A DNA stretch of 11,394 nucleotides, taken from the IMG/VR virus record IMGVR_UViG_2671180275_000011. The stretch is one strand, 5' to 3'. A program made the position numbers. Below, one piece after another: positions 6,001 to 9,000 of the stretch (position 1 is its first letter; each line of letters begins with the position of its first letter). This stretch comes from a virus (Duplodnaviria; Heunggongvirae; Uroviricota; Caudoviricetes).

Positions 6001-9000
6001 GAAACCCGGTAGCCATGCTGGCAGTGTGTGCATCACTCGCCGGGCCGTTGCTGTGGCTGCTTGATGTGGACAGCGGCGGATTTCATTTCATGGGCGACAG
6101 TTCCAGCGGGAAAAGCGTGGGGGCGCTGGTGGCCTGTAGCGTATGGGGAGAACCCCGCAACTTTAAACGCAACTGGAACGCCACCAGCACCGGGCTTGAA
6201 GGGCTGGCGACCATGCGGAACGATACCGCGCTGATACTGGATGAAATTGGCGAAGCCCCGGCCAGAGATATTGGCGGGCTGATTTATCAGCTTGGCAACG
6301 GAACAGGCCGCCAGCGTGGCAAGGTGTCCGGCATGGCCCGCCCGGTCAACACATGGCGCACCATGATTATTTCCACAGGGGAAATGACCGTGGGTAAACA
6401 CATGGAAAGCGGTGGTCAGCGCATCAAGGCCGGGCAGGAAATGCGGTTACTGGATATTCCGGCACAGCGGCTTTACGGGGCGTTTGACTGCCTCCACGGA
6501 ATGGCACTACCCCACAACCCCGACAACGACACAGAACGCCGTGGAGCAGGCCGGAAATTTGCCGAAACGCTGCGCGGTAATGCGGCCACCCATTACGGCC
6601 ACGCCGGGCCGGAGTTTGTGCGCTGGCTGATTTCCCGCAATGAAAGTGACACCACCAGCACCGACAGCAACGGCCAGACGCTGGCGGATATGTACGCCAT
6701 ACTGCGCGAACAATTCCCCGTAAGCACCGGGCAGGAGGCGCGCGCCGCCGCGCGTTTCACACTGTGCGCACTGGCCGGTGAAATGGCGATAACTGCCGGG
6801 ATTCTGCCGTGGAAACAGGGCGAAGCACTGGAGGCGGTGAAAGCGATGTTTGCTGCGTGGTCGGACTATCGTGGCCGGGGGCAATCGGAGGACGTGAAAA
6901 TACTCCGGGCCGTCGCCGGGTTTATCGCCCGCCATGCCTCACGCTTTGAAGGGGGCAACACATACAGCGAACCAGTAAGCAACCGCGCCGGATGGTGGCG
7001 ACCGGGGAGCAACGGCGACCGGGTTTACTGGTTTTTACCGGAAGCACTATGTGAGGCGGCCAGCGGCTACGACCTGAAACGCATAGCGGCCAGTCTTGAT
7101 GATGCTGGCGCGATTGTTGACCGCGACACGGACGGGAAACGCCGATACACAAAACGCGTTTCCGTTAACGGGGAAAAACACCGCGTTTACGCCATCGACC
7201 AGAATGCATTGTTATTCGCAATTGATGAATAATTAACAAAAATTGCGTTTTTAAAAACTGAAAAAGTGGTGGGACTGGTGGGAACTGTGGGAACCGTAAA
7301 AATAAAACATATATAAATCAGTAAATAATAAAATCACCAGTATGATTATTGTTCGTTTTTGAGTGGGAACTCTGCGGGAACTGGTGGGAACCACAGAGAA
7401 CAAAAAATAACCGCCACGGTTCCCACAAAAAGCCACCGTGGGAACTGGTGGGAACCACTGAAAGCCGCGTGGTTCTAGGCGGTTCCCACAGTTCCCACCA
7501 GTCCCACCAACTTGCACAATATTACGCACGGCAAAAAACGCACCATAAAAACCCGGAAATCCCTTACGTGGCGCTGGATGCAAGGCAATTTCAGTGTGCA
7601 AAACGGGTTAAACAGCAAAACCACACAGAATAGCGAAAAGCCCAGCAATGGCGCGGCATGTGGAGCATTTACCAGTGAATCACGAATAACGCTTTTTAAG
7701 GGCAAAAATGCACTTTTTAGCGCACAAAATCACGCGAAGCCAGACGCGGCGCGGCTTACAGCCGTGTTTATATGCCTGATTACCGTTTTCTGGCGGCAAA
7801 AAAGAACACCGAAACACACGCGCAGCCCGCGCCACACAAGGGATACAGCGAAATGAGCACATCAGAACACGCAGAAATCACGAAAAAACACCATAAAACG
7901 CACGTTTTCAGCGATTCAGAACATCAGATTTATGCATAAGTTATTCAGCCTGCCGGATGCATTGTGTGAGTTTATCCGGGCATTACCTGCACCGGATTTA
8001 CAGGAAGCGCACCAGTCCGAAACATGGCCGGAAGACAACACCACCAGCAACGGCCAGACGCTGGCGGATATGTGCGCCCCGTCTGCGGCGTGGCTGGCTG
8101 CCCGTGATGCGTATATCAGCCACGTCATGACCTGCCCGCATTGTGCTACCAGCGGCGTTAAAAAACCGCGTCATTGCGCTGAGGGTGAACGACTACGGCA
8201 GAACTACGACCACACCAGATAACCACCACACCCCGGCGATTAATTCCGGGAACAGCCGGGAGAATGCGGGAAAAGGCGGGATTAATCCGGGAATAAACGG
8301 AAATAACCGGGATTTCGTGGGACTGCACCGCCATAAGGTGGGGTGCGGTCATTATTCCGCGACGTTTTCCCCGGCAAGAGCACACGCGGCGCGGGCTGCA
8401 TGGAATTTCAGGCCATGCCAGAAATGAACTTTTTCGCCCATTGTTACCCTGAATATGGTAAAAAATGCTCACCCATTGCCGGGCCATGAACAAAATCAGC
8501 CCCATTATGCATGGCGGCCACATACCACCAGCCACATCACAGAGCGCCATTGAATGCCAGAGAGTACACCACGAGCGCCATTTTAAAAACCGTTTCAAAG
8601 CACCATAAAATCGGCTTTTAGGCATTGTTTAAGAAAGCGTGTTTTTCAGACAGGCCGACCGACTGGCAGGATATGAGAAAGGCAACGTAATCAGCGTATC
8701 CGGCACGATGCAGGTAAGCCAGTGGACCGGACAGAACGGGGAAACGCGGCAGGGTTATCAGGTCATAGCGGACAGCATAATCAGTGCACGGGCGACGCGT
8801 CCAGGCGGGAGCAGACGCAGTACCACAGGCACACAGAGCAATCAGCCACCAGCGGGAAGTTATGACCCCTGCGGTGACAATATTCCGTTCTGAGGGGGTG
8901 AACGATGGTACATGACCGCATAGCGGAAGAACTGGAGTCGAAAGGCTTTTACCGGAGAGCGGCGGCGCGATGGGCCGAAGTGATGATGCTGGTGGAGACT

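What the first reader, a model, noticed from the sequence alone, without database searches (positions are those of the whole stretch)
8639..8893. Truncated SSB-like ORF that keeps the C-terminal protein-interaction tip
The ORF matches the C-terminal third of SSB, including the terminal ...D-x-IPF tail, but lacks most of the OB fold, so it should not bind ssDNA as a normal tetramer. The host SSB tail is the docking site for many repair and replication proteins (RecQ, ExoI, PriA, RecO and others). A free tail-bearing fragment could act as a decoy against host DNA metabolism or competing phage, or it may simply be a pseudogene. It ends 11 nt before the PerC-like gene, consistent with co-transcription.
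Basis: partly seen in the sequence, partly recalled or inferred. Interest (0 to 1): 0.6.

Follow-up and report, generated by a model that had tools for sequence, protein, structure and literature searches.

The report
Leftover half of a satellite ssb gene
The 84-codon SSB-like ORF is real, but it is most likely a dead remnant of the single-strand-binding gene normally found before perC in E. coli phage satellites, cut in half where two island segments were joined.

Summary
The ORF at 8639-8893 exists, scores as SSB (Pfam profile positions 55-101 of 104), ends in ...GDNIPF, and stops 11 nt before perC.

It is the 3' 60% (codons 56-136) of a 136-aa ssb. That gene sits intact directly before perC in PICI and capsid-forming PICI satellites in about 1,650 of 5,426 complete E. 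coli genomes.

Homology to full-length ssb begins at base 8647. Everything to the left is a decayed copy of an island right end (tRNA-like relic plus post-tRNA block). In other strains that block is the last island sequence before the chromosome.

The GTG start and the first three codons therefore come from unrelated DNA. The same bases occur where no ssb follows. The Shine-Dalgarno-like stretch is weak and sits 1 nt from the start.

The junction occurs in only 7 of 5,426 complete genomes. RefSeq flags the ORF as a pseudogene in all three junction-bearing records inspected. One allele carries a nonsense codon.

The gene-like dN/dS (about 0.3) is explained by demonstrable recombination with intact ssb copies.

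A second, independent truncation upstream of perC has no start codon and ends IPL.

Verdict: an ordinary recombination scar. The decoy idea is not excluded but has no support.

The parts
8639..8893 (+). The 84-codon ORF (GTG start, TGA stop): a truncated ssb remnant.
   Evidence: RefSeq: 'single-stranded DNA-binding protein, pseudogene, incomplete, missing N-terminus'.
8639..8647 (+). The first three codons, GTG-TTT-TTC. They are not ssb-derived. They belong to the island-end block and also occur in L004, where no ssb follows.
   Evidence: L004-type homology ends, and full-length ssb homology begins, at query base 63, which is window 8647.
8648..8890 (+). ssb codons 56-136: the second half of the OB fold, the short linker and the ...GDNIPF tip.
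8490..8647 (+). A decayed copy of an island right end: a relic of the tRNA-Tyr 3' end plus the post-tRNA block. Positions 8575-8618 repeat 10179-10222 at 80% identity.
   Evidence: (family D3). In L004 this block is followed by the nfeF chromosomal flank.
8631..8637 (+). The purine-rich stretch AAGAAAG, 1 nt before the GTG. It is a weak and badly spaced Shine-Dalgarno candidate.
   Evidence: Read directly from the sequence. The same bases are present in L004 without any ORF.
8905..9201 (+). The perC-family gene, with its own SD (GGGGGTGA at 8893-8900). The last ~7 codons are frameshifted relative to orthologues.
9291..9698 (+). A Mor-family activator gene, part of the same right-hand module.
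9979..10162 (+). Tandem tRNA-like genes at the true right end of the island. The copy at 9979-10054 is degenerate. The copy at 10081-10162 is tRNA-Tyr-like.
10179..10222 (+). The post-tRNA right-end block, second copy of the repeat whose first copy lies just before the remnant.
4292..7232 (+). The Toprim plus DUF927 replication module of the left-hand segment. Islands with intact ssb carry RepA-helicase or primase modules instead.

Best explanation
The ORF is a non-functional remnant of a satellite ssb gene, left behind at a recombination joint. The window is a roughly 10-kb PICI / P4-like satellite inserted between yicC and dinD of a Shiga-toxin-type E. coli. It is a composite of two segments. 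The left segment (integrase, AlpA, C4-RNA / Icd-like region, Toprim primase, DUF927, iterons) runs up to its own decayed right end at 8647. There it is fused to the middle of ssb in the right-hand module (ssb-perC-mor-tRNA-like genes-end) of a second island. Codons 1-55 of ssb, its ribosome-binding site and its translational coupling to the upstream gene were lost. The remaining 81 codons happen to be in frame with a GTG that pre-exists in the island-end sequence, and this creates the 84-codon ORF. The steps shown here are the breakpoint, the duplicated end, the intact orthologues, the rarity of the junction, the nonsense allele, and recombination with intact copies. The inferred steps are that the joint arose by deletion within a tandem pair of islands (by microhomology or by integrase acting at a pseudo-att site), and that the ORF is not translated to any useful level.
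For: (1) Related islands carry an intact 136-aa ssb with a strong SD directly before perC. About 1,656 of 5,426 complete genomes hold at least 80% of it. (2) The homology breakpoint is at window 8647, 8 nt inside the ORF. The junction is identical or nearly so in all truncated copies, which indicates one ancestral event. (3) The sequence left of the joint is a second copy of the island right end, and in L004 it abuts the chromosome flank. (4) The GTG and the purine stretch exist in L004 without any ssb. The SD-like stretch is 1 nt from the start. (5) The junction is present in only 7 of 5,426 complete genomes. (6) PGAP annotates the ORF as a pseudogene in L001, L005 and L006. L005 has CAG changed to TAG. 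(7) The remnant is the most divergent segment of the island among three junction-bearing strains: 88-91.5% identity against 94-96% for the adjacent non-coding DNA. (8) Truncated copies carry 6-9 residues never seen in 64 full-length alleles, including acidic residues next to the tip: D127Y here, D132G in P0002, D/N133G in P0003. (9) An independent truncation at codon 42 (P0088, 58 contigs) also sits before perC, has no canonical start codon and ends IPL.
Against: The frame is open in 6 of 7 distinct alleles, and IPF is kept in all of them. Pairwise dN/dS among truncated copies is about 0.3, the same as among intact genes. Changes private to truncated copies give an omega of about 0.5, which is not significantly different from either 1 (p 0.09) or 0.31 (p 0.22). 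No +-strand terminator-like site lies between the upstream operon and the ORF, so it may be transcribed by read-through. A 9-of-12 promoter-like match lies at 8582-8611, which is within chance expectation. These points are weakened by two results. First, recombination is demonstrated: the 3' two-thirds of L019 is identical or 1 nt different from intact alleles L009 and L024, and P0081 carries the linker of the 141-aa allele class. Second, only 3.4% of substitutions create stops, so an open frame is expected in about 60-80% of neutral copies at this divergence.
Confidence: 0.76

Rival explanations
1. The fragment is a free SSB-tip decoy or dominant-negative. The 84-aa product is made by read-through transcription. 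Its ...GDNIPF end competes with host or helper-phage SSB for partner proteins such as RecQ, ExoI, PriA, RecO and the chi subunit. Alternatively, its half OB fold poisons SSB tetramers. Either effect would perturb host or phage DNA metabolism.
For: The IPF tip is retained in all truncated alleles, and the frame is open in 6 of 7. dN/dS is about 0.3. No +-strand terminator-like site lies upstream. It is established biochemistry, from my own knowledge, that SSB C-terminal peptides bind partner proteins in vitro.
Against: The start codon is fortuitous and the SD is poor. A nonsense allele exists. Acidic residues flanking the tip are eroded in several alleles. The remnant is the fastest-diverging segment of the island. 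The junction is rare, 7 of 5,426 genomes. The low dN/dS is explained by recombination with intact genes. An independent truncation has lost the terminal Phe. Literature searches found no precedent.
Confidence: 0.07
2. The DNA is kept for perC rather than for a protein of its own. The 3' part of ssb would serve as the 5' leader, or carry expression signals, of perC-mor. Deletions that remove it would then be selected against, while the ORF itself is irrelevant.
For: Two independent truncations, at codon 56 and codon 42, both keep the ssb 3' part directly upstream of perC. The perC SD GGGGGTGA begins at the last base of the ssb stop codon. The last ~20 nt of ssb are invariant among the truncated DNA alleles compared, although full-length alleles and L017 do vary there.
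Against: No promoter-like site was found inside 8648-8904. perC itself is frameshifted at its 3' end in this window, so selection on the module here is doubtful. Simple hitch-hiking without any selection explains the same facts.
Confidence: 0.1
3. The ORF is a mis-read of a functional short SSB: the fragment alone still binds ssDNA.
For: It keeps one conserved aromatic residue (W29 of the ORF, invariant) and scores above the Pfam cut-off.
Against: Profile positions 1-54 of 104 are absent. All intact relatives are 136-141 aa. From general knowledge, an OB barrel cannot close without its first three strands.
Confidence: 0.01

Closest known systems
The 136-141-aa SSB of E. coli PICI and capsid-forming PICI satellites, for example the ssb before perC in the O157:H7 island (L008) and in the tqsA-site cf-PICIs (L007, L009).
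   Same: The retained 81 codons are 80-83% identical in protein. The position directly before perC is the same, and so is the ...G-D-D/N-I-P-F end.
   Different: The window copy lacks codons 1-55, the native ATG and the native SD. It is fused to unrelated island-end DNA.
E. coli chromosomal SSB (178 aa; PDB 1EYG, 1EQQ).
   Same: Same family. The remnant aligns from about residue 61 onward and shares the IPF tip.
   Different: Only 33% identity. The linker is much shorter, and the remnant has no N-terminal half of the OB fold.
Other truncated ssb remnants upstream of perC (P0088 lineage, 98 aa).
   Same: It is N-terminally truncated, lies directly before perC, and sits in a degraded island.
   Different: The breakpoint is independent (codon 42). 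There is no canonical start codon, and the tip is mutated to IPL.
Synthetic SSB C-terminal peptides used as competitors of SSB-partner interactions (from my own knowledge; no paper retrieved here).
   Same: They would be the mechanistic model for a decoy reading.
   Different: Nothing shows that the window ORF is expressed or binds anything.

Membership tests
Bacterial or phage SSB (Pfam PF00436) | A complete OB-fold ssDNA-binding / oligomerisation domain | tested here: not met
   Only profile positions 55-101 of 104 are matched. Codons 1-55 of the 136-aa orthologue are absent.
Bacterial or phage SSB (Pfam PF00436) | A C-terminal protein-interaction tip ending in acidic residues plus I-P-F | tested here: met
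   The ORF ends ...DPCGDNIPF. One acidic residue is replaced relative to the family consensus GGDDPYGDDIPF.
Bacterial or phage SSB (Pfam PF00436) | ssDNA binding and tetramer formation | not testable with these tools
   This needs biochemistry.
Pseudogene (gene remnant) | Intact orthologues at the same position, with part of the coding sequence missing here | tested here: met
   PGAP flag.
Pseudogene (gene remnant) | Disabling mutations accumulating in copies that share the truncation | tested here: met
   L005 has CAG changed to TAG. There are excess private replacements. The dN/dS tests are inconclusive.
Pseudogene (gene remnant) | No translation product | not testable with these tools
   No expression data are available. 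Only the weak, badly spaced SD argues for this.
PICI / P4-like phage satellite (the host element) | Integrase, AlpA-type regulator and its own replication module; about 10 kb; no lysis or tail genes; inserted at a fixed chromosomal site | tested here: met
   Relatives carry capsid modules. The PICI gene set is as described in PMC11773190.
PICI / P4-like phage satellite (the host element) | Induction and packaging by a helper phage | not testable with these tools
   This needs experiments.

The most novel reading that the evidence does not exclude
The scar has been co-opted. Read-through transcription from the satellite's early operon yields an 84-aa peptide, and its IPF tip titrates SSB-partner proteins of the host or of a helper or competing phage. 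This would be a naturally occurring SSB-tail decoy carried by a phage satellite.
Probability: 0.06. Interest if true: 0.6.

Novelty: already known. Interest (0 to 1): 0.12.

Why it matters
As it stands, it matters little. It is an annotated pseudogene and a clear example of how module swapping between phage satellites leaves in-frame gene fragments that look like small genes. There are two useful by-products. First, the ssb-perC module is shown to be a recombination hot zone, and remnants there are repeatedly overwritten by intact alleles. This can mimic purifying selection and mislead dN/dS-based calls of function. Second, this island is shown to be a fusion of two satellite segments with a duplicated tRNA-like right end.

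Tried and rejected
- **dN/dS.** Pairwise dN/dS was first run with a one-codon mis-registration for L002 and L003. It was redone correctly. The result is not decisive, because truncated and intact copies both give about 0.3.
- **Polarised private-change counts.** With 5 and then 12 intact DNA alleles as reference, omega came out at about 0.45-0.5, which is not separable from either 1 or 0.31.
- **Junction-specific exact scans.** The metagenome scan gave 2 true hits, both identical or nearly identical to the window, and 2 chance hits. The GTDB species-representative scan gave none. No new alleles were gained.
- **Literature.** Searches for SSB-tail decoys or mimics returned nothing relevant. One of them was swamped by 'IPF', the lung disease.
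- **tRNA detection.** ARAGORN found no tRNA in the window, although Rfam and PGAP do.
- **Other ORFs.** The minus-strand ORFs overlapping the region were considered. ORF 8158-8625 has no Pfam hit. ORF 8618-9064 was not searched. RefSeq annotates no gene for either in this stretch. Neither was pursued.
- **Structure prediction.** It was not run. An MSA-driven model would not test whether the fragment folds on its own.
- **One get_proteins call** failed on the id limit.

Full report
**Observation**

The ORF is real. It runs 8639-8893 on the + strand, starts with GTG, has 84 codons and ends with TGA. An in-frame TAA lies at 8630-8632, 6 nt (two codons) before the GTG. Pfam SSB (PF00436) scores 27.8 bits against a cut-off of 26, with E 2.6e-6. 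ORF residues 2-47 match profile positions 55-101 of 104. The ORF ends ...DPCGDNIPF. The perC-family gene (Pfam PerC, 120.9 bits) starts at 8905, 11 nt after the stop. The quantitative wording needs correcting, as set out under anatomy of the truncation below.

**What the window is**

- It is 100% identical, over the 1.2 kb tested, to chromosomes of five E. coli strains, among them the human STEC isolates 2012EL-2448 and 2015C-3121.
- It is an island between yicC and dinD.
- From left to right it carries:
  - a tyrosine integrase and a 317-aa unknown protein;
  - an AlpA-type HTH regulator;
  - a region annotated 'Icd-like' that holds two C4 antisense RNA genes, isrK-like hits and an int-alpA RNA;
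  - a Toprim protein and a DUF927 protein;
  - about 1.4 kb of mostly non-coding DNA with iteron-like repeats;
  - the ssb fragment, perC and a Mor-family gene;
  - tRNA-like genes, followed by the chromosomal dinD.
- This is the gene set of E. coli phage-inducible chromosomal islands and P4-like satellites. The PICI gene content is as described in PMC11773190.

**Intact versions at the same place**

- In islands at the nfeF locus (L002, L003) a 136-aa ssb lies directly before perC-mor-tRNA-like-tRNA-Tyr. It has an ATG and a strong SD, and it overlaps the preceding ORF.
- In capsid-forming PICIs at tqsA (L007, L009) and in the O157:H7 island next to roxA (L008), the same ssb-perC pair lies between the replication gene and the capsid module.
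- Seven more intact copies were fetched.
- A blastn census finds the gene in 1,768 of 5,426 complete E. coli genomes, and 1,656 of these hold at least 80% of it.
- In the protein database, most of the 120 best hits are 136-141 aa long.

**Anatomy of the truncation**

- DNA homology between the window and the intact genes starts at window 8647. Homology between the window and Toprim/DUF927 islands that lack ssb (L004 and about 20 pig and sheep strains) ends at the same base.
- The ORF is therefore a fusion. GTG-TTT-TTC (8639-8647) comes from the left partner. Codons 56-136 of ssb (8648-8890) come from the right partner. That is 81 of 136 codons, or 60%, not a 'third'.
- About half of the OB fold is missing: profile positions 1-54. 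By the alignment to E. coli SSB, and from my own knowledge of that structure, this corresponds to strands beta1-beta3.

**The left partner is an island end**

- Window 8490-8647 aligns with the tRNA-Tyr 3' end and the block that follows it at the true right end of the island. Positions 8575-8618 match 10179-10222 at 80% identity (family D3).
- In L004 this block is the last island sequence before the nfeF flank.
- The window island is therefore a composite. One segment is [integrase ... Toprim-DUF927 ... own right end]. The other is ['ssb-perC-mor-tRNA-like genes-right end] from a second island.
- How the joint formed is inferred, not shown. The most economical history is two islands in tandem, followed by a deletion from the first island's end into the second island's ssb.
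- The two parental sequences share a short imperfect match at the crossover: CAA.AGGC..AC. This fits microhomology-mediated or integrase-mediated illegitimate recombination.

**Is the ORF a gene?**

Arguments against:

1. The GTG and the purine stretch AAGAAAG before it are present in L004, where no ssb follows. They were therefore not selected as a start site. The purine stretch is a poor SD match and ends 1 nt before the GTG. The native ssb SD (GGAGAGGTGG) was lost.
2. The junction is rare: 7 of 5,426 complete genomes. Five of those are identical to the window.
3. RefSeq/PGAP annotates the ORF as 'incomplete ... missing N-terminus' in all three junction-bearing records inspected. In L005 a CAG-to-TAG change gives an internal stop.
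4. Among three junction-bearing strains the remnant is the most divergent segment of the whole island. It is 87.8-91.5% identical, against 94-96% for the adjacent non-coding DNA and 96-100% for most genes.
5. Truncated alleles carry 6-9 residues never seen in 64 full-length alleles, whose mean is 0.6 private residues per allele. These include residues flanking the tip: D127Y in the window, D132G in P0002, and D/N133G in P0003. This comparison is affected by how the hits were sampled.
6. A second, independent truncation exists (P0088; 98 aa; 58 contigs). Its homology starts at codon 42. It also sits directly before perC in a degraded island, has no canonical start codon, and ends IPL instead of IPF.

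Arguments for:

- The frame is open in 6 of 7 distinct alleles: window/P0001, P0002, P0003, P0004, L006 and P0081. IPF is kept in all of them.
- Pairwise dN/dS among truncated copies is 0.29-0.36, the same as among intact genes (0.31 pooled).
- No +-strand terminator-like site lies between the upstream operon and the ORF.

**Why the gene-like dN/dS is not evidence of function here**

- The truncated alleles do not cluster together. L006 and L019 are closer to intact alleles L022 and L024 than to other truncated copies.
- By thirds of the remnant, L019 is nearest to truncated copies in the first third. It is 1 nt different from intact L009 and L024 in the second third, and identical to them in the last third. 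L006 behaves in the same way.
- P0081 (97 aa) has the same junction but carries the linker of the 141-aa allele class.
- perC next door also switches allele class between strains: 86.8% identity between the window and L006, against 98% between the window and L005.
- So the remnant is repeatedly overwritten by homologous recombination with intact ssb genes from co-resident satellites. Complete genomes hold up to 6 places matching intact ssb.
- This imports polymorphism that has already been filtered by selection, and it restores open frames.
- Changes found only in truncated copies, relative to 12 intact DNA alleles, number 20 non-synonymous (one of them a stop) against 12 synonymous. That gives an omega of about 0.5. 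Singletons among intact alleles number 4 against 8.
- The trend is towards relaxed constraint, but it is not significant: p 0.09 against neutrality and p 0.22 against 0.31.
- Only 3.4% of possible substitutions create a stop. A neutral copy would therefore stay open with probability about 0.6-0.8 at the observed divergence.

**Conclusion and mechanism**

With about 0.76 confidence, this is an ordinary gene remnant at a recombination joint between two satellite segments. Its open frame and start codon are accidental. It persists because it hitch-hikes with perC-mor and is refreshed by recombination.

Two rivals remain:
- the decoy or dominant-negative idea (about 0.07);
- retention of the DNA as a leader or expression signal for perC (about 0.1).

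The perC idea fits the two independent truncations that both keep the ssb 3' end. It is not supported by any promoter-like site in the remnant.

**Comparison with known systems**

The fragment belongs by descent to the short SSBs of PICI and cf-PICI satellites, and more distantly to bacterial SSB (33% identity to E. coli SSB; PDB relatives). It fails the defining feature of the family, a complete OB fold, and keeps only the tip motif. It is already annotated as a pseudogene in RefSeq.

**Novelty and scores**

Novelty is 'already known' and interest is low (0.12). The most novel reading not excluded is a naturally occurring SSB-tail decoy carried by a phage satellite. I put its probability at about 0.06, with an interest of about 0.6 if true.

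Noticed in passing
window 2841-3559: There are two copies of the C4 antisense RNA (2982-3069 at 82 bits; 3472-3559 at 74 bits). Each is preceded by isrK and c4-a1b1 target-like hits. This is a duplicated P1/P4-type immunity-RNA cassette inside the region annotated as 'Icd-like' proteins.
   Followed up: no
window 1279-1344: An int-alpA RNA (Rfam RF02996, 64 bits) lies between the integrase and the 317-aa unknown gene.
   Followed up: no
window 7271-7461 and 8245-8312: Two iteron-like arrays (GGGAACTGGTGGGAAC x4, and a ~10-nt-phased CCGGGA-type array) lie in the 1.4-kb mostly non-coding stretch after DUF927. They are probably the replication origin of the satellite.
   Followed up: no
window 9979-10162 (and relic at ~8490-8545): The island carries its own tandem tRNA-like genes at its right end. 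One is degenerate (20 bits; 'tRNA-OTHER' in relatives). The other passes the Rfam threshold (35 bits; PGAP calls it tRNA-Tyr), but ARAGORN does not call it. A third, decayed copy lies before the ssb remnant. Their function is unknown; possibilities are a real tRNA, an att-site relic or a decoy.
   Followed up: partly
window 8905-9201: The perC-family gene has a frameshift that replaces the last ~7 codons (KKIWRSYQK becomes KKSGVATRNKHRAGTVG). The PerC domain itself is intact. RefSeq flags the gene as frameshifted.
   Followed up: partly
L010-L012, 6001-6297: An independent ssb truncation lineage exists (P0088; 98 aa; 58 contigs). It starts at codon 42, has no canonical start codon and ends IPL. 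It again lies directly before a perC gene, in a degraded island beside YebF and cytochrome b562 genes.
   Followed up: partly
L001 ~820-850 and window ~10255-10285: GTGTACATA-N3-GTGTACATA repeats occur at both ends of the island and are probably integrase-binding sites. The nfeF-site islands instead have AGGCATAC-N4-GGCATA repeats at their right end.
   Followed up: no
window 7932-8222: A conserved 96-aa ORF with no Pfam hit and a Cys-rich C-terminal half is annotated as hypothetical in all relatives. It travels with the Toprim/DUF927 module.
   Followed up: no
L002, L003, L004 (nfeF locus) vs window (yicC-dinD): Near-identical replication and right-end modules are found behind different integrases at different chromosomal sites. 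This shows free module shuffling among these satellites.
   Followed up: partly
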